The position numbers were made by a program, and so were the translations under genes. A stretch of DNA of 7,435 nt from Naegleria gruberi. Taxonomy: Eukaryota. Under the pieces are notes generated by a model. The model saw nothing but the letters and a program-made list of their open reading frames with translations. It had not been told where the DNA came from and did not search any database. The number at the start of each line of letters is the position of its first letter. Within the stretch, counting starts at the first letter, position 1. This document shows, in pieces, positions 1 through 7,435 of this stretch. The stretch lies in NCBI GenBank assembly GCA_000004985.1, contig GG739138.1; one strand, 5' to 3'.

Positions 1-453
1 ATGATTGCTGACATTGTCAGGGCAAAGGAAGAAGTAGAAGAGAGAAAACTTGCTGAGCAACGACAAATTGAACAAGCTCTCCAAAAGAAAAAAGAAGAAG
101 AACGAATTAAACAAGAAGAATTAAGGAAAGAACTGGCAAAAGTCAAAGTTCCAGTAACTAATAGAAAAAATCATTTTTCTAATAGAATGCAATCGAGAAA
201 GGAGCAATTTTTGAATCAATCGGAAGATAAGGAGAATTGTTCCCCTCAACAAGTTGAAACAAATCAACCAACAGTTTCGAAAAATGTTCAAAGTCTCGAT
301 GTTATGGAAACCATTTCGAATAAGGTTGTTCTAAGAGAAAGACCAAGAAGAAATACAACACCAATCATGATGAGACCACAAGCTCTATTAGATAATTCTA
401 TACCTGCATCTCCTCGTTCATTATTCCCTCGCCAAACACAACAAGTTTCATAA
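1..453 (+). CDS. Terminal part (or a complete 150-aa ORF) of a protein with a K/E/R-rich predicted coiled-coil (aa ~5-48) followed by an S/T/P/Q-rich disordered tail. The stop is TAA at 451-453. The true 5' end probably lies upstream of the window.
   Basis: ORF track frame +1 is open from the window edge to TAA 451-453. The heptad-like charged EEVEERKLAEQRQIEQALQKKKEEERIKQEELRKELAK is typical of coiled-coils. Arg is mostly AGA and the composition is protein-like. The ATG at position 1 may be a coincidence of the window cut. I could not place the product in a named family. Confidence 0.55.
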   Translation: MIADIVRAKEEVEERKLAEQRQIEQALQKKKEEERIKQEELRKELAKVKVPVTNRKNHFSNRMQSRKEQFLNQSEDKENCSPQQVETNQPTVSKNVQSLDVMETISNKVVLRERPRRNTTPIMMRPQALLDNSIPASPRSLFPRQTQQVS

Positions 454-499
454 AAAACCTCACTTTGTTAAATAGACCGTGGGAGGTGAGAAGGATTGA

Positions 500-545
500 C
501 AAATATTTTTATAAAAAATTTAGAAGTCACTCAAAAAACAAAAAT
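500..545 (+). terminator. Putative yeast-type mRNA 3'-end formation region for the 1-453 gene: a UA-rich efficiency-like element TTTTTATA followed by an A-rich positioning-like tract.
   Basis: TTTTTATA at 506-513 is followed directly by A6 (513-518) and CAAAAAACAAAAA (532-544), about 50-90 bp after the stop codon. This pattern is known from S. cerevisiae 3' UTR signals. There is no canonical metazoan AATAAA immediately downstream of the stop. Confidence 0.3.
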
Positions 546-702
546 TTGTTAAAGTCGAGCCGAAGGTTTATTGGACCAAGAGTGAGACAGTGTGTTCAAA
601 GTATCAATTACCACTTGTTCTTCTAGAAACAAGTACTTCTGGGTTCTTGTACATGAACTTTCGCTTTAATGTACCAACAATTTCAAGTAAATGGGCAGGC
701 AC

Positions 703-898
703 TTATCTAGATGATGTTTTGGCGAGGTGAATGTAGTAATGGCTGGTGAGGAAGGAAGCAAAGGGAGAACTCTCCTCATGGTGGCTTCTCAAGGTAGCAT
801 GCTGAAGGTGGGAATACCAACCAATATACCTATTTAGCAGGGTGATGATGAATTCATGATGAGTAATTGTTGTTTGTTGTTTTTTTTTGTTGAATATT
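703..898 (-). CDS. Candidate C-terminal end of a minus-strand gene that enters the gap. The stop is TAA (plus-strand TTA at 703-705), convergent with the 1-453 gene.
   Basis: The minus frame is open for 65 codons from the gap edge down to the stop at 703 (...NKKKQQTTITHHEFIITLLNRYIGWYSHLQHATLRSHHEESSPFASFLTSHYYIHLAKTSSR*). At ~35% GC an open stretch this long by chance is only a few percent likely. The segment is also GC-richer than its flanks. There is no start codon and no homology that I can recognise. Confidence 0.2.
866..898 (+). repeat. GT-rich low-complexity tract and T9 run abutting the left gap edge (attgttgtttgttgtttttttttgttgaatatt).
   Basis: Direct reading. T run at 880-888. The minus strand reads as a CA-rich stretch encoding N/K/Q/T. 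Confidence 0.7.
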
Positions 899-3800
899 NN
901 NNNNNNNNNNNNNNNNNNNNNNNNNNNNNNNNNNNNNNNNNNNNNNNNNNNNNNNNNNNNNNNNNNNNNNNNNNNNNNNNNNNNNNNNNNNNNNNNNNNN
1001 NNNNNNNNNNNNNNNNNNNNNNNNNNNNNNNNNNNNNNNNNNNNNNNNNNNNNNNNNNNNNNNNNNNNNNNNNNNNNNNNNNNNNNNNNNNNNNNNNNNN
1101 NNNNNNNNNNNNNNNNNNNNNNNNNNNNNNNNNNNNNNNNNNNNNNNNNNNNNNNNNNNNNNNNNNNNNNNNNNNNNNNNNNNNNNNNNNNNNNNNNNNN
1201 NNNNNNNNNNNNNNNNNNNNNNNNNNNNNNNNNNNNNNNNNNNNNNNNNNNNNNNNNNNNNNNNNNNNNNNNNNNNNNNNNNNNNNNNNNNNNNNNNNNN
1301 NNNNNNNNNNNNNNNNNNNNNNNNNNNNNNNNNNNNNNNNNNNNNNNNNNNNNNNNNNNNNNNNNNNNNNNNNNNNNNNNNNNNNNNNNNNNNNNNNNNN
1401 NNNNNNNNNNNNNNNNNNNNNNNNNNNNNNNNNNNNNNNNNNNNNNNNNNNNNNNNNNNNNNNNNNNNNNNNNNNNNNNNNNNNNNNNNNNNNNNNNNNN
1501 NNNNNNNNNNNNNNNNNNNNNNNNNNNNNNNNNNNNNNNNNNNNNNNNNNNNNNNNNNNNNNNNNNNNNNNNNNNNNNNNNNNNNNNNNNNNNNNNNNNN
1601 NNNNNNNNNNNNNNNNNNNNNNNNNNNNNNNNNNNNNNNNNNNNNNNNNNNNNNNNNNNNNNNNNNNNNNNNNNNNNNNNNNNNNNNNNNNNNNNNNNNN
1701 NNNNNNNNNNNNNNNNNNNNNNNNNNNNNNNNNNNNNNNNNNNNNNNNNNNNNNNNNNNNNNNNNNNNNNNNNNNNNNNNNNNNNNNNNNNNNNNNNNNN
1801 NNNNNNNNNNNNNNNNNNNNNNNNNNNNNNNNNNNNNNNNNNNNNNNNNNNNNNNNNNNNNNNNNNNNNNNNNNNNNNNNNNNNNNNNNNNNNNNNNNNN
1901 NNNNNNNNNNNNNNNNNNNNNNNNNNNNNNNNNNNNNNNNNNNNNNNNNNNNNNNNNNNNNNNNNNNNNNNNNNNNNNNNNNNNNNNNNNNNNNNNNNNN
2001 NNNNNNNNNNNNNNNNNNNNNNNNNNNNNNNNNNNNNNNNNNNNNNNNNNNNNNNNNNNNNNNNNNNNNNNNNNNNNNNNNNNNNNNNNNNNNNNNNNNN
2101 NNNNNNNNNNNNNNNNNNNNNNNNNNNNNNNNNNNNNNNNNNNNNNNNNNNNNNNNNNNNNNNNNNNNNNNNNNNNNNNNNNNNNNNNNNNNNNNNNNNN
2201 NNNNNNNNNNNNNNNNNNNNNNNNNNNNNNNNNNNNNNNNNNNNNNNNNNNNNNNNNNNNNNNNNNNNNNNNNNNNNNNNNNNNNNNNNNNNNNNNNNNN
2301 NNNNNNNNNNNNNNNNNNNNNNNNNNNNNNNNNNNNNNNNNNNNNNNNNNNNNNNNNNNNNNNNNNNNNNNNNNNNNNNNNNNNNNNNNNNNNNNNNNNN
2401 NNNNNNNNNNNNNNNNNNNNNNNNNNNNNNNNNNNNNNNNNNNNNNNNNNNNNNNNNNNNNNNNNNNNNNNNNNNNNNNNNNNNNNNNNNNNNNNNNNNN
2501 NNNNNNNNNNNNNNNNNNNNNNNNNNNNNNNNNNNNNNNNNNNNNNNNNNNNNNNNNNNNNNNNNNNNNNNNNNNNNNNNNNNNNNNNNNNNNNNNNNNN
2601 NNNNNNNNNNNNNNNNNNNNNNNNNNNNNNNNNNNNNNNNNNNNNNNNNNNNNNNNNNNNNNNNNNNNNNNNNNNNNNNNNNNNNNNNNNNNNNNNNNNN
2701 NNNNNNNNNNNNNNNNNNNNNNNNNNNNNNNNNNNNNNNNNNNNNNNNNNNNNNNNNNNNNNNNNNNNNNNNNNNNNNNNNNNNNNNNNNNNNNNNNNNN
2801 NNNNNNNNNNNNNNNNNNNNNNNNNNNNNNNNNNNNNNNNNNNNNNNNNNNNNNNNNNNNNNNNNNNNNNNNNNNNNNNNNNNNNNNNNNNNNNNNNNNN
2901 NNNNNNNNNNNNNNNNNNNNNNNNNNNNNNNNNNNNNNNNNNNNNNNNNNNNNNNNNNNNNNNNNNNNNNNNNNNNNNNNNNNNNNNNNNNNNNNNNNNN
3001 NNNNNNNNNNNNNNNNNNNNNNNNNNNNNNNNNNNNNNNNNNNNNNNNNNNNNNNNNNNNNNNNNNNNNNNNNNNNNNNNNNNNNNNNNNNNNNNNNNNN
3101 NNNNNNNNNNNNNNNNNNNNNNNNNNNNNNNNNNNNNNNNNNNNNNNNNNNNNNNNNNNNNNNNNNNNNNNNNNNNNNNNNNNNNNNNNNNNNNNNNNNN
3201 NNNNNNNNNNNNNNNNNNNNNNNNNNNNNNNNNNNNNNNNNNNNNNNNNNNNNNNNNNNNNNNNNNNNNNNNNNNNNNNNNNNNNNNNNNNNNNNNNNNN
3301 NNNNNNNNNNNNNNNNNNNNNNNNNNNNNNNNNNNNNNNNNNNNNNNNNNNNNNNNNNNNNNNNNNNNNNNNNNNNNNNNNNNNNNNNNNNNNNNNNNNN
3401 NNNNNNNNNNNNNNNNNNNNNNNNNNNNNNNNNNNNNNNNNNNNNNNNNNNNNNNNNNNNNNNNNNNNNNNNNNNNNNNNNNNNNNNNNNNNNNNNNNNN
3501 NNNNNNNNNNNNNNNNNNNNNNNNNNNNNNNNNNNNNNNNNNNNNNNNNNNNNNNNNNNNNNNNNNNNNNNNNNNNNNNNNNNNNNNNNNNNNNNNNNNN
3601 NNNNNNNNNNNNNNNNNNNNNNNNNNNNNNNNNNNNNNNNNNNNNNNNNNNNNNNNNNNNNNNNNNNNNNNNNNNNNNNNNNNNNNNNNNNNNNNNNNNN
3701 NNNNNNNNNNNNNNNNNNNNNNNNNNNNNNNNNNNNNNNNNNNNNNNNNNNNNNNNNNNNNNNNNNNNNNNNNNNNNNNNNNNNNNNNNNNNNNNNNNNN

Positions 3801-6157
3801 NNNNNNNNNNNNNNNNNNNNNNNNNNNNNNNNNNNNNNNNNNNNNNNNNNNNNNNNNNNNNNNNNNNNNNNNNNNNNNNNNNNNNNNNNNNNNNNNNNNN
3901 NNNNNNNNNNNNNNNNNNNNNNNNNNNNNNNNNNNNNNNNNNNNNNNNNNNNNNNNNNNNNNNNNNNNNNNNNNNNNNNNNNNNNNNNNNNNNNNNNNNN
4001 NNNNNNNNNNNNNNNNNNNNNNNNNNNNNNNNNNNNNNNNNNNNNNNNNNNNNNNNNNNNNNNNNNNNNNNNNNNNNNNNNNNNNNNNNNNNNNNNNNNN
4101 NNNNNNNNNNNNNNNNNNNNNNNNNNNNNNNNNNNNNNNNNNNNNNNNNNNNNNNNNNNNNNNNNNNNNNNNNNNNNNNNNNNNNNNNNNNNNNNNNNNN
4201 NNNNNNNNNNNNNNNNNNNNNNNNNNNNNNNNNNNNNNNNNNNNNNNNNNNNNNNNNNNNNNNNNNNNNNNNNNNNNNNNNNNNNNNNNNNNNNNNNNNN
4301 NNNNNNNNNNNNNNNNNNNNNNNNNNNNNNNNNNNNNNNNNNNNNNNNNNNNNNNNNNNNNNNNNNNNNNNNNNNNNNNNNNNNNNNNNNNNNNNNNNNN
4401 NNNNNNNNNNNNNNNNNNNNNNNNNNNNNNNNNNNNNNNNNNNNNNNNNNNNNNNNNNNNNNNNNNNNNNNNNNNNNNNNNNNNNNNNNNNNNNNNNNNN
4501 NNNNNNNNNNNNNNNNNNNNNNNNNNNNNNNNNNNNNNNNNNNNNNNNNNNNNNNNNNNNNNNNNNNNNNNNNNNNNNNNNNNNNNNNNNNNNNNNNNNN
4601 NNNNNNNNNNNNNNNNNNNNNNNNNNNNNNNNNNNNNNNNNNNNNNNNNNNNNNNNNNNNNNNNNNNNNNNNNNNNNNNNNNNNNNNNNNNNNNNNNNNN
4701 NNNNNNNNNNNNNNNNNNNNNNNNNNNNNNNNNNNNNNNNNNNNNNNNNNNNNNNNNNNNNNNNNNNNNNNNNNNNNNNNNNNNNNNNNNNNNNNNNNNN
4801 NNNNNNNNNNNNNNNNNNNNNNNNNNNNNNNNNNNNNNNNNNNNNNNNNNNNNNNNNNNNNNNNNNNNNNNNNNNNNNNNNNNNNNNNNNNNNNNNNNNN
4901 NNNNNNNNNNNNNNNNNNNNNNNNNNNNNNNNNNNNNNNNNNNNNNNNNNNNNNNNNNNNNNNNNNNNNNNNNNNNNNNNNNNNNNNNNNNNNNNNNNNN
5001 NNNNNNNNNNNNNNNNNNNNNNNNNNNNNNNNNNNNNNNNNNNNNNNNNNNNNNNNNNNNNNNNNNNNNNNNNNNNNNNNNNNNNNNNNNNNNNNNNNNN
5101 NNNNNNNNNNNNNNNNNNNNNNNNNNNNNNNNNNNNNNNNNNNNNNNNNNNNNNNNNNNNNNNNNNNNNNNNNNNNNNNNNNNNNNNNNNNNNNNNNNNN
5201 NNNNNNNNNNNNNNNNNNNNNNNNNNNNNNNNNNNNNNNNNNNNNNNNNNNNNNNNNNNNNNNNNNNNNNNNNNNNNNNNNNNNNNNNNNNNNNNNNNNN
5301 NNNNNNNNNNNNNNNNNNNNNNNNNNNNNNNNNNNNNNNNNNNNNNNNNNNNNNNNNNNNNNNNNNNNNNNNNNNNNNNNNNNNNNNNNNNNNNNNNNNN
5401 NNNNNNNNNNNNNNNNNNNNNNNNNNNNNNNNNNNNNNNNNNNNNNNNNNNNNNNNNNNNNNNNNNNNNNNNNNNNNNNNNNNNNNNNNNNNNNNNNNNN
5501 NNNNNNNNNNNNNNNNNNNNNNNNNNNNNNNNNNNNNNNNNNNNNNNNNNNNNNNNNNNNNNNNNNNNNNNNNNNNNNNNNNNNNNNNNNNNNNNNNNNN
5601 NNNNNNNNNNNNNNNNNNNNNNNNNNNNNNNNNNNNNNNNNNNNNNNNNNNNNNNNNNNNNNNNNNNNNNNNNNNNNNNNNNNNNNNNNNNNNNNNNNNN
5701 NNNNNNNNNNNNNNNNNNNNNNNNNNNNNNNNNNNNNNNNNNNNNNNNNNNNNNNNNNNNNNNNNNNNNNNNNNNNNNNNNNNNNNNNNNNNNNNNNNNN
5801 NNNNNNNNNNNNNNNNNNNNNNNNNNNNNNNNNNNNNNNNNNNNNNNNNNNNNNNNNNNNNNNNNNNNNNNNNNNNNNNNNNNNNNNNNNNNNNNNNNNN
5901 NNNNNNNNNNNNNNNNNNNNNNNNNNNNNNNNNNNNNNNNNNNNNNNNNNNNNNNNNNNNNNNNNNNNNNNNNNNNNNNNNNNNNNNNNNNNNNNNNNNN
6001 NNNNNNNNNNNNNNNNNNNNNNNNNNNNNNNNNNNNNNNNNNNNNNNNNNNNNNNNNNNNNNNNNNNNNNNNNNNNNNNNNNNNNNNNNNNNNNNNNNNN
6101 NNNNNNNNNNNNNNNNNNNNNNNNNNNNNNNNNNNNNNNNNNNNNNNNNNNNNNNNN
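899..6157. other. Assembly gap: 5,259 consecutive N. The non-round length suggests a size-estimated scaffold gap.
   Basis: Uninterrupted n characters from 899 to 6157. Every ORF-track entry that crosses it (X runs) is an artifact of translating N. Confidence 0.97.
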
Positions 6158-6300
6158 TCTCGCATTTGAGAGAGAACTTGGTTGTTGCTGGTGGTGGATG
6201 TTATCTTGGACGACATTATTTGTTTTTGGTAGTGTGTTGTTGTTTTGTTTTGAGAATATTCGAAAGGATAAGATAATACTGGAGTAACTGTCCTGTTCAT
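6158..6300 (-). CDS. Candidate N-terminal 47 codons of a minus-strand gene running into the gap (MNRTVTPVLSYPFEYSQNKTTTHYQKQIMSSKITSTTSNNQVLSQMR...). There is an alternative, better-context start at 6216 (MSSKITSTTSNNQ...).
   Basis: ATG is the reverse complement of CAT at 6298-6300. Codons are yeast-preferred (TCT, GTT, ACT, CCA, CAA, AAC). The opposite plus-strand frame gives Cys/Val-rich junk. The first ATG has a poor -3 context (T), whereas the ATG at 6214-6216 has A at -3 and a following TCG (ATAATGTCG). The region downstream on the plus strand (6301-7261) looks like a promoter. Confidence 0.4.
6177..6252 (+). repeat. GT-rich low-complexity tract just inside the right gap edge (ttggttgttgctggtggtggatg...gtgtgttgttgttttgttttgag).
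   Basis: Direct reading. Strong G+T skew on the plus strand, which is CA-rich on the minus strand. It mirrors the composition at the left gap edge. Confidence 0.65.
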
Positions 6301-6413
6301 AAAAGGATCTTTCCTTTCTAATGCAAATGGTAAGAACAGTATTCTCTCTCTAACAAAAAAAATATAATCACTTCATCATTGCTGATTGTCTTTACCAATT
6401 CAATACGGAAAAT

Positions 6414-6455
6414 GTTGATATTCAATGTGCATCATCTTTGGATATACATCAATAG
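6414..6455 (+). repeat. Dispersed repeat copy A: GTTGATATTCAA ... TATACATCAATAG.
   Basis: gttgatattcaa at 6414-6425 and tatacatcaatag at 6443-6455. Both halves recur in copy B at 6754-6799 with the same order and orientation. Confidence 0.6.
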
Positions 6456-6586
6456 TATTGTCGTTTTAGTAATAGTGTGCACACTATATTAATGAAATAA
6501 ATTTCCTCAGTGCTTCTTTTATACCTTACTCAACAAATAAAGACATTTAATTTGATTACAGCGATTACTGGGTTTTTTTTCAATCA

Positions 6587-6668
6587 CCCCTTAAAAATCG
6601 TAGTTGTTAAAAGTGAATGCCCTTCAAAAACAAGTTTTTCTTCTCTTTACTGTGTTTTTAGTGCCCCT
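6587..6668 (+). promoter_or_regulatory. Two CCCCT (AGGGG on the minus strand) motifs matching the yeast stress-response element core.
   Basis: CCCCT at 6587-6591 and 6664-6668. The STRE core AGGGG/CCCCT is bound by Msn2/Msn4 in S. cerevisiae (established knowledge). A 5-mer match alone is weak. Confidence 0.2.
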
Positions 6669-6670
6669 AT

Positions 6671-6677
6671 TATATAA
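6671..6677. promoter_or_regulatory. TATA-box consensus TATATAA.
   Basis: tatataa at 6671-6677 is a near-perfect match to TATA(A/T)A(A/T). It lies ~370 bp from the minus-strand ATG and ~590 bp from the plus-strand ATG. Confidence 0.25.
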
Positions 6678-6753
6678 TTTTTTAATTCTTCTGATTTTTG
6701 AAAAAACGTAAAAATTGAAGAAACAGTTTGAGCTGACACTCTCTTGGGAATCA

Positions 6754-6799
6754 GTTGATATTCCAAAGAGTATACATCAATGAAATACATCCACAATAG
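6754..6799 (+). repeat. Dispersed repeat copy B: GTTGATATTCCAA ... TATACATCAATGAAATACATCCACAATAG.
   Basis: gttgatattccaa at 6754-6766 and tatacatcaat at 6771-6781 match copy A. It also contains the first copy of TCAATGAAATACATCCA (6777-6793). Confidence 0.6.
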
Positions 6800-6881
6800 T
6801 TTAGAAACATTTCAAACTACTTTCATAAAATTAATCAGAATGTTCAATGTCAACACTATATATCCTAGTGAACACTCCATC

Positions 6882-6900
6882 TCAATGAAAGTACATCCAA
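6882..6900 (+). repeat. Second copy of the TCAATGAAA(G)TACATCCA motif.
   Basis: tcaatgaaagtacatccaa at 6882-6900 matches tcaatgaaatacatccaca at 6777-6795: 17 of 18 positions match with one 1-nt indel, ~105 bp apart in the same orientation. Confidence 0.6.
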
Positions 6901-6904
6901 TCAT

Positions 6905-6930
6905 CATGTAAATTTACCATGTAAATTTAC
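6905..6930 (+). repeat. Perfect tandem duplication of the 13-bp unit CATGTAAATTTAC. Each unit contains the 10-bp palindrome GTAAATTTAC.
   Basis: catgtaaatttac at 6905-6917 and again at 6918-6930. GTAAATTTAC is its own reverse complement. The two palindromes sit 13 bp centre to centre. Confidence 0.85.
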
Positions 6931-7032
6931 CAGATACATTTAATTACATTACTATATATCTTGTATCAATTTCACATTGTTAGAATAGAATTCAATACGA
7001 TAATAATAACGAGGGTAATATGTATCCGTGTT

Positions 7033-7050
7033 ATCCAGCCAACGCTGGAT
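7033..7050. repeat. Inverted repeat ATCCAGC-caac-GCTGGAT (7-bp arms, 4-nt spacer).
   Basis: atccagc at 7033-7039 and gctggat at 7044-7050 are reverse complements. It belongs to the GGAT/ATCC-rich cluster. Confidence 0.6.
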
Positions 7051-7066
7051 TGAAAGGATTTTGTCA

Positions 7067-7095
7067 GATGGGATCCACTATAAGTGGATCCCATC
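7067..7095. repeat. Perfect 13-bp inverted repeat GATGGGATCCACT-ata-AGTGGATCCCATC (3-nt spacer). Each arm contains GGATCC.
   Basis: Positions 7067-7079 are the exact reverse complement of 7083-7095, and the arms cannot be extended (7066 and 7096 are both A). A 13/13 match is far beyond chance for 2.2 kb of readable sequence. Confidence 0.9.
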
Positions 7096-7107
7096 AAGAC
7101 AAAGCCA

Positions 7108-7133
7108 GGATAAAATGGATAATGGATGGATAA
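7108..7133 (+). promoter_or_regulatory. Three direct GATAA motifs within 25 bp (GGATAAaaTGGATAATGGATGGATAA), a candidate GATA-factor binding cluster.
   Basis: GATAA at 7109-7113, 7118-7122 and 7129-7133, all in the same orientation and ~130-155 bp upstream of the ATG at 7262. Fungal GATA factors (Gln3/Gat1/Dal80/Gzf3 in S. cerevisiae) bind GATAA/GATAAG and need two or more sites (established knowledge). The assignment here is inference. Confidence 0.35.
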
Positions 7134-7240
7134 TTCCGATATAATCAGCTACAAATCTAATAGTTATATTAAGGAGAGATGTTACTGAGAAATTATCTAT
7201 GAGAAATACTACAATATAAGAGGATGTAACTGTTCTAAAT

Positions 7241-7248
7241 TATATAAG
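7241..7248 (+). promoter_or_regulatory. TATA-like element TATATAAG immediately upstream of the ORF start.
   Basis: tatataag at 7241-7248 lies only 14 bp before the ATG at 7262. That is too close for a budding-yeast TSS downstream of the TATA but ahead of this ATG, so either the element is not a functional TATA or translation starts at a later Met. Confidence 0.2.
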
Positions 7249-7261
7249 AATTAAGAAAAAA

Positions 7262-7435
7262 ATGTTAGAAATGGATGATTTGATGGAACTATTGCAAAGC
7301 TCAATGGCTCTTGAGGATGATGAGCTTGAGAAAATCAAGTTGGCTCTTTATGAAAACGTTATAAGATTGTCAGAGCATTTGTTGGATGAAAATGAGGAGT
7401 CTTTGGAATTGATTGGCTTGAAGAGAAGAGTTGCA
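7262..7435 (+). CDS. 5' end of a plus-strand protein-coding gene that continues past the window. N-terminal 58 aa: MLEMDDLMELLQSSMALEDDELEKIKLALYENVIRLSEHLLDENEESLELIGLKRRVA. Acidic, helical and Leu-rich.
   Basis: ATG at 7262-7264 follows an A7 run (aaaaaaaATG, favourable yeast context). There is an in-frame upstream stop TAA at 7217-7219. The frame is open to the window end. Leu codons are mostly TTG and Arg is exclusively AGA (budding-yeast-like bias). The ORF track does not list it, presumably because its length is below the track cutoff. I could not place the product in a named family. Confidence 0.6.
   Translation, partial: MLEMDDLMELLQSSMALEDDELEKIKLALYENVIRLSEHLLDENEESLELIGLKRRVA

What the first reader, a model, noticed from the sequence alone, without database searches (positions are those of the whole stretch)
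899..6157. A 5.26 kb assembly gap dominates the window and both its edges share the same GT/CA-rich low complexity
The gap covers 71% of the window, so any gene system there is invisible. Its non-round length (5,259) suggests a size estimate from scaffolding rather than a placeholder. Both flanks (866-898 and 6177-6252) are strongly GT-rich on the plus strand. This hints that the unassembled DNA continues as low-complexity repetitive sequence, which would explain why assembly failed.
Basis: seen in the sequence. Interest (0 to 1): 0.5.

Follow-up and report, generated by a model that had tools for sequence, protein, structure and literature searches.

The report
Sized scaffold gap in redundant Naegleria scaffold
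The run of N is an ordinary assembly gap joining two short contigs in a tiny Naegleria gruberi scaffold, and the same locus also sits on a 380-kb scaffold, so nothing biological is shown and little is probably lost.

Summary
There is one N-run, 899-6157 (5,259 nt, 70.7% of the window). The strongest GT-rich stretch of each contig lies 6 nt and 19 nt from the gap edges (0/2000 shuffles reach them).

The window is an entire 7,435-bp scaffold of Naegleria gruberi NEG-M, a Sanger-era draft. It consists of an 898-nt contig and a 1,278-nt contig. Both scaffold ends cut genes in mid-sequence. Both cut genes have 99-100% identical full-length twins, NAEGRDRAFT_69850 and NAEGRDRAFT_69847, on one 379,849-bp scaffold.

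The best reading is a small redundant scaffold, allelic or duplicated, made of clone-end contigs with a mate-pair-sized gap. Its interior should be readable on the large scaffold.

The GT-rich tracts are short and bounded, and look non-coding. No reading frame long enough to test that abuts the gap matches any predicted protein, and the minus-strand frames have the wrong codon composition. The 1,865-aa ORF across the gap is an artefact of N translated as X.

Nothing shows that 5 kb of low complexity follows; the interior could not be retrieved, so this stays untested. The two tracts share a 29-nt motif, which leaves a small chance of an insertion/deletion variant bounded by repeats.

Interest is low.

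The parts
1..898 (.). Left contig of the scaffold (898 nt)
   Evidence: Sequence read; N-run boundaries.
1..453 (+). 3' part of a gene, annotated as P0001 = EFC35576.1 / NAEGRDRAFT_54844 (150 aa). It is a 5'-truncated copy of the 198-aa P0002 (NAEGRDRAFT_69850); the scaffold starts on the codon for Met49.
   Evidence: It shows 1 amino-acid difference in 150 (C versus Y).
859..898 (+). Left GT-rich, TTG-like low-complexity tract containing a T9 run. It ends at the gap.
   Evidence: TRF 867-892; 0/2000 shuffles; 6 nt from the edge.
899..6157 (.). Run of 5,259 N: a scaffold gap. Its size is probably estimated from clone mates.
   Evidence: The size-estimate reading is inference.
6158..7435 (.). 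Right contig of the scaffold (1,278 nt)
6177..6252 (+). Right GT-rich tract (84% G+T). It starts 19 nt inside the contig.
   Evidence: 0/2000 shuffles.
871..898 (+). Left copy of a ~29-nt motif, TGT(G)TTGTTGTTTT..TTG..GAATATT. The right copy is at 6233-6260.
   Evidence: (86% over 29 nt), and (7/3000 composition-matched shuffles reach the score).
6233..6260 (+). Right copy of the same motif, followed by ordinary-complexity sequence.
7262..7435 (+). First 58 codons of a gene identical to the N-terminus of P0004 (EFC42172.1 / NAEGRDRAFT_69847, 218 aa). The scaffold end cuts it off.

Best explanation
The N-run is a sized gap between two short Sanger contigs (898 and 1,278 nt). Clone-mate links joined them into a 7.4-kb scaffold of the Naegleria gruberi NEG-M draft genome. 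The scaffold is a redundant copy of a locus that is also assembled inside a 379,849-bp scaffold, between or next to NAEGRDRAFT_69847 and NAEGRDRAFT_69850. It could be the second allele of a heterozygous diploid, a very recent duplicate, or leftover reads. The gap exists because only the end reads were left in this small scaffold, not necessarily because the interior cannot be assembled. The GT-rich stretches are short, non-coding, TTG-type low-complexity tracts near the inner ends of the two contigs. They may have helped end or split the contigs, through loss of read quality after the T9/TTG run or through a heterozygous length difference. They do not show that the missing 5 kb is low complexity.

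Shown here: the organism, the gap coordinates, the significance of the tracts, the twin genes on one large scaffold, and the lack of coding evidence at the edges.

Inferred: the mate-pair origin of the gap length, the allelic status, and the reason the contigs end where they do.
For:: the 150-aa product of 1..453 is 100% identical to a N. gruberi protein whose only contig is 7,435 bp long, so the window is a whole scaffold; the left gene has a 99% twin (P0002, 198 aa) and the right gene a 100% twin over 58 aa (P0004, 218 aa). Both twins lie on one 379,849-bp scaffold, with consecutive GenBank protein accessions (EFC42172/EFC42173) and JGI ids 69847/69850; both scaffold ends truncate these genes, at Met49 of 198 and after residue 58 of 218, as expected for random clone or read ends. 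(PMC9928731, Table 1): NEG-M was sequenced by Sanger, gives 40.9 Mb in 1,977 scaffolds, and Naegleria is treated as a heterozygous diploid. [quoted passage not shown]: none of the four minus-strand frames queried at the two gap edges (71, 64, 64 and 20 aa) matches any protein at E<=10 among 5.8 billion clusters, which include the N. gruberi proteome; the two open plus-strand frames at the right edge match no representative protein apart from one spurious repeat hit; the minus-strand edge frames have C3 of 28-42% and G1 of 5-14%, against C3 of 7% and G1 of 27-38% in the two real coding regions.
Against: The large scaffold's DNA could not be fetched. DNA-level identity, the true length of the interval and its content are therefore untested. 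The coincidence of the strongest GT-rich windows with both gap edges and the 29-nt shared motif are only loosely explained by read-quality or polymorphism arguments. The gap-size origin was not checked against an AGP record. Consecutive EFC numbers do not prove physical adjacency, because the JGI ids differ by 3.
Confidence: 0.72

Rival explanations
1. One reading: the missing 5.3 kb is largely GT/CA-rich low-complexity or satellite DNA that continues from both edges. Under this reading it could not be assembled in any copy of the locus.
For: The most GT-rich windows of both contigs sit at the gap edges on the same strand. The two tracts share a 29-nt motif beyond what composition alone gives.
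Against: The tracts are only about 40 and 76 nt long and are bounded. Positions 6158-6176, next to the gap, are not GT-rich. The right copy of the motif is followed by normal sequence. TRF finds only 2.6-3.9 weak copies on the left and nothing on the right. Sanger reads normally cross tracts of this size (general knowledge). A redundant mate-pair scaffold explains the gap without any repeat.
Confidence: 0.08
2. The small scaffold represents a haplotype or copy carrying a ~5-kb insertion that the large scaffold lacks, such as a transposable element or another dispersed repeat. Alternatively it reflects an insertion/deletion variant formed by recombination between the two related TTG...GAATATT tracts. 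The interior was left unassembled because it is repeated elsewhere in the genome.
For: This would explain why an otherwise near-identical locus was assembled separately. The two flanking genes carry consecutive GenBank protein accessions on the large scaffold. No annotated protein matches the reading frames tested at the edges. There are direct, imperfect 29-nt copies at 871-898 and 6233-6260.
Against: The two contigs share no LTR-like or inverted terminal repeats. The right copy of the motif lies 75 nt inside the contig rather than at the gap edge. JGI ids 69848 and 69849 fall between the two flanking genes, hinting that gene models exist in the interval on the large scaffold. The 6.8 kb between the two genes is an unremarkable size for about two genes at the assembly's average density (40.9 Mb / 16,620 genes).
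Confidence: 0.13
3. The gap lies inside one long minus-strand gene, the 1,865-aa ORF at 703..6300. On this reading the CA-rich strand encodes Q/T/N/K-rich low-complexity protein at both ends.
For: the ORF listing reports an in-frame ORF across the gap. The gap length is a multiple of 3 (5,259 = 3 x 1,753). Minus-strand frames stay open for 64-71 codons at both edges.
Against: N translates as X, so any frame stays open across the gap. A mate-pair size estimate carries no frame information. T-poor sequence lacks stop codons in any case. There is no protein match at E<=10, although the identical-allele proteome is in the database. Codon composition is unlike the neighbouring coding regions.
Confidence: 0.03
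4. The Ns are a deliberate mask, for example contaminant or vector screening, or masking by a data provider, and not an assembly gap.
For: The exact, non-round length is divisible by 3.
Against: The public record for this scaffold already has the full 7,435-nt length including the Ns (longest contig 7,435). Both flanks are N. gruberi genes that lie close together on a larger scaffold. Masks of 5 kb inside a 7-kb record are not usual practice (general knowledge).
Confidence: 0.02

Closest known systems
Sized sequence gap inside a whole-genome-shotgun scaffold (contigs ordered by clone-mate links, gap length estimated from insert size)
   Same: It is a single uninterrupted N-run of non-placeholder length between two contigs. 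The genes on those contigs are also neighbours on a larger scaffold. The total span of about 7.4 kb is about one medium plasmid insert (insert sizes are from memory of JGI Sanger practice).
   Different: Nothing differs in kind. The linkage evidence and the 'estimated' flag could not be read with these tools.
Redundant allelic scaffolds (haplotigs) in assemblies of polymorphic diploid genomes, as treated by HaploMerger (PMC3409271) and noted for Jazz/Celera assemblies (PMC1185649)
   Same: It is a tiny scaffold whose two partial genes are 99-100% identical in protein to full-length genes on one large scaffold of the same assembly. The organism is described as a heterozygous diploid (PMC9928731).
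   Different: Allelic status is not shown. A very recent segmental duplication, or unplaced error-containing reads, would look the same at this resolution. Only one amino-acid difference was observed.
Short TTG/CAA-type microsatellite-like low-complexity tracts in AT-rich protist intergenic DNA
   Same: The tracts are strand-asymmetric, with T and G making up 84-91%. The left one has a weak period-7/10 tandem signal, and neither shows coding evidence.
   Different: Two related copies sit next to the two edges of an assembly gap. That placement is more than chance and is not explained by the tracts themselves.

Membership tests
Sized WGS scaffold gap | Uninterrupted run of N between two real contigs, with a length that is not a conventional placeholder (10/20/50/100/1000...) | tested here: met
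   one run, 899..6157, 5,259 nt.
Sized WGS scaffold gap | The two contigs are true neighbours in the genome, in the stated order and orientation | tested here: inconclusive
   protein twins of both flanking genes lie on one 379,849-bp scaffold, with consecutive EFC accessions and JGI ids 69847/69850. The DNA of that scaffold could not be aligned.
Sized WGS scaffold gap | AGP/CON record gives the gap type 'scaffold', paired-end linkage and an estimated length | not testable with these tools
   No access to assembly records.
Redundant allelic scaffold (haplotig) | Near-identity along its length to a region of a larger scaffold of the same assembly | tested here: inconclusive
   Met at protein level only: 149/150 and 58/58 residues identical. 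Non-coding DNA was not comparable.
Redundant allelic scaffold (haplotig) | Half-depth read coverage, or segregation as alleles | not testable with these tools
   No reads available.
Low-complexity or satellite array filling the gap | The repeat continues up to both gap edges and shows a tandem structure | tested here: not met
   the right tract stops 19 nt before the gap. TRF finds only 2.6-3.9 weak copies on the left and none on the right. The interior itself is unseen.
Transposable-element insertion | Terminal repeats (LTR/TIR) or target-site duplication at the boundaries | tested here: inconclusive
   no LTR/TIR-like similarity between the flanks. The only match is a 29-nt, 86% low-complexity direct match, whose right copy lies 75 nt inside the contig. 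The element's ends would lie within the Ns.
Protein-coding low-complexity (poly-Q/T/N) region on the minus strand | The reading frames at the gap edges belong to a predicted or known protein and have the organism's codon bias | tested here: not met
   no hit at E<=10. C3 of 28-42% against 7% in the neighbouring coding regions, with log-odds at or below 0.

The most novel reading that the evidence does not exclude
The small scaffold records a real structural difference between the two NEG-M haplotypes, or between two recent copies. That difference would be a ~5-kb insertion/deletion bounded by the two related TTG-rich...GAATATT tracts (871-898 and 6233-6260). A mobile element or repeat-mediated recombination could have produced it.
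Probability: 0.1. Interest if true: 0.2.

Novelty: not a real feature. Interest (0 to 1): 0.05.

Why it matters
It matters mainly for quality control. Windows like this, tiny leftover scaffolds of old Sanger drafts that are mostly N, should not be mined for hidden systems. ORF callers also produce spurious giant ORFs across N-runs; here they report 1,865, 1,806 and 1,760 aa. If the minority reading were true, it would be one example of structural heterozygosity in N. gruberi NEG-M, which is of modest interest.

Tried and rejected
1. Alternative genetic codes (tables 4, 6, 10, 12, 15, 25, 27) were tried to see whether the ORF-poor flanks become coding. They give no convincing gain, and the standard code fits the two real genes.

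2. Pfam scans of every edge peptide and of P0002, P0003 and P0004 found nothing above threshold. A passing resemblance of the 739-834 plus-strand peptide to an ankyrin repeat was not supported.

3. Fetching the large scaffold failed. The look-up of encoding contigs has no record for P0001, P0002 or P0004.

4. A search for related loci in JGI metagenomes with P0004 and with a P0002/P0003/P0001 alignment gave no confirmed relative.

5. Exact edge sequences were not found in GTDB genomes (left-edge sequence) or IMG/VR (right-edge sequence).

6. A minus-strand gene reading through the gap was rejected.

7. A plus-strand gene ending in a C-terminal transmembrane segment at 6159-6284 looks hydrophobic, with a Kyte-Doolittle mean of 1.8. 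Every G/T-only codon encodes G, V, W, C, L or F, so that hydrophobicity says little. No protein matches either frame. The single hit, P0005, is an unrelated repeat protein matched over 12 residues.

8. Rfam and tRNA scans of the flanks found nothing.

9. The original genome paper (Cell 2010) and the 2011 review are not held in the library. Assembly details beyond PMC9928731's table therefore rest on memory.
Full report
**1. The observation**

The window holds a single N-run at 899..6157. It is 5,259 nt long, which is 70.7% of the 7,435 nt. It leaves an 898-nt left contig and a 1,278-nt right contig.

- Positions 866-898 are 88% G+T with no C.
- Positions 6177-6252 are 84% G+T.
- The contig means are 47% and 51%.

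None of 2000 dinucleotide-preserving shuffles of either contig reaches the observed maximum. The most GT-rich window of each contig lies 6 nt (left) and 19 nt (right) from the gap. Taken alone, those positions have p~0.008 and p~0.017.

The tracts also share a 29-nt motif at 871-898 and 6233-6260. It is 86% identical and ends in GAATATT. Only 7 of 3000 shuffles of the tracts themselves score as well.

There are two qualifications. The right tract does not touch the gap, because 6158-6176 is ordinary sequence. And only the left tract has any tandem structure (TRF score 38).

**2. What the window is**

The ORF at 1..453 is 100% identical to a Naegleria gruberi predicted protein, EFC35576.1 / NAEGRDRAFT_54844. 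Its only contig is 7,435 bp long, so the window is a complete scaffold of the NEG-M draft genome.

That protein is a 5'-truncated version of P0002 (EFC42173.1, NAEGRDRAFT_69850, 198 aa; 149/150 residues identical). The scaffold begins on the codon for Met49.

At the other end, 7262..7435 encodes the first 58 residues of P0004 (EFC42172.1, NAEGRDRAFT_69847, 218 aa). They are 100% identical, and the scaffold end cuts the gene off.

P0002 and P0004 both lie on one 379,849-bp scaffold. They carry consecutive GenBank protein accessions, and their JGI ids are three apart.

NEG-M was sequenced by Sanger and gives 40.9 Mb in 1,977 scaffolds. Naegleria is regarded as a heterozygous diploid (PMC9928731).

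**3. Interpretation**

The window consists of two contigs of about read length, spans about 7.4 kb and cuts genes at both ends. It also duplicates a locus already present in a large scaffold. These are the features of a leftover mate-pair scaffold.

Only the end reads of a few clones were kept apart from the main assembly, because of allelic differences, a very recent duplication or read errors. They were joined by a gap whose length comes from the insert-size estimate. [quoted passage not shown] It also notes that single-genome assemblers such as Jazz split contigs apart because of polymorphism.

It is from my memory, not from a tool, that JGI Sanger projects used roughly 3-kb, 6-8-kb and 40-kb clone libraries. 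A 7.4-kb span fits the middle class.

On this reading the gap does not hide a gene system. The interval can be read on the 380-kb scaffold. At the assembly's average density (40.9 Mb / 16,620 genes, about 2.5 kb per gene), the 6.8 kb between the two flanking genes could hold about two ordinary genes. JGI ids 69848 and 69849 may be those genes (inference).

**4. Are the GT-rich edges coding?**

The ORF listing reports ORFs of 1,865, 1,806 and 1,760 aa across the gap. These are artefacts, because N translates to X.

The minus strand is CA-rich and T-poor, so it lacks stop codons. It stays open for 64-71 codons at both edges. Several tests argue against coding:
- A chimeric query of four minus-strand edge frames (71, 64, 64 and 20 aa) found no protein at E<=10 among 5.8 billion clusters. 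That database includes the N. gruberi proteome (an earlier partial query was).
- These frames have C3 of 28-42% and G1 of 5-14%. The two genuine coding regions have C3 of 7% and G1 of 27-38% (the training set is small, so this is weak evidence).
- On the plus strand, the right-edge frames look like a transmembrane segment plus a short tail. However, every G/T-only codon encodes G, V, W, C, L or F, so hydrophobicity is automatic.
- A profile of both plus-strand right-edge frames, run against 1.84 billion representative proteins, found only an unrelated repeat protein matched over 12 residues.
- Pfam, Rfam and tRNA scans are empty.

The tracts are best treated as non-coding low complexity.

**5. 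Why the tracts sit at the edges**

This is the one point not fully explained. There are four candidates, all inferred:
- Read quality collapses just after the T9/TTG run. The left contig ends 9 nt after the T9.
- Heterozygous length variation in such tracts stopped these reads merging with the main consensus.
- The tracts are copies of a repeat that bounds an insertion/deletion variant.

The last is disfavoured because the tracts are short and bounded, and because the right-hand copy of the shared motif runs directly into normal sequence. It cannot be excluded without the interior sequence.

**6. What could not be done**

No related locus or exact edge sequence exists in the metagenome, GTDB or IMG/VR collections. 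The AGP or CON record and the original genome paper were unavailable.

**7. Verdict**

This is an ordinary assembly artefact in a redundant mini-scaffold. The flanking low-complexity tracts are real but unremarkable, and interest is very low. The most novel reading that survives is a haplotype-specific ~5-kb indel bounded by the two related tracts. It has roughly 10% probability and would be of modest interest.

Noticed in passing
window 7030-7140 (palindrome at 7067-7095): There is a dense cluster of 11 GGAT/ATCC tetramers in 111 nt; 0 of 5000 shuffles reach this. It includes a perfect 13+13-nt palindrome, GATGGGATCCACT-ATA-AGTGGATCCCATC, which folds as DNA at -19.2 kcal/mol with z = -9. The cluster lies about 120-230 nt upstream of the ATG at 7262 of the NAEGRDRAFT_69847-type gene. 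It is a candidate promoter or transcription-factor-site cluster.
   Followed up: partly
window 6905-6932: There is a perfect tandem duplication of a 13-mer, CATGTAAATTTAC (2.2 copies), in the ORF-free ~1-kb region between the gap and the right-hand gene.
   Followed up: no
window 1-453: The scaffold's first base is the A of an in-frame ATG (Met49 of the 198-aa P0002). The GenBank model on this scaffold (EFC35576.1, 150 aa) therefore looks complete but is a 5'-truncated duplicate. It differs from P0002 by one residue, C versus Y at position 80 of P0001 (residue 128 of P0002). A more distant paralogue, P0003, scored 55% identical in the search and 63% in the alignment, and sits on a 707,703-bp scaffold.
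   Followed up: partly
window 703-6300 (-), 856-6276 (+), 887-6169 (+): Mechanical ORF listing produces 'ORFs' of 1,865, 1,806 and 1,760 aa made almost entirely of X across the N-run. This is a trap for automated gene or system calling on gapped scaffolds.
   Followed up: yes
window 454-898 and 6285-7261: About 1.4 kb of the 2.2 kb of real sequence has no convincing ORF in any tested genetic code. This stretch was not examined further.
   Followed up: no
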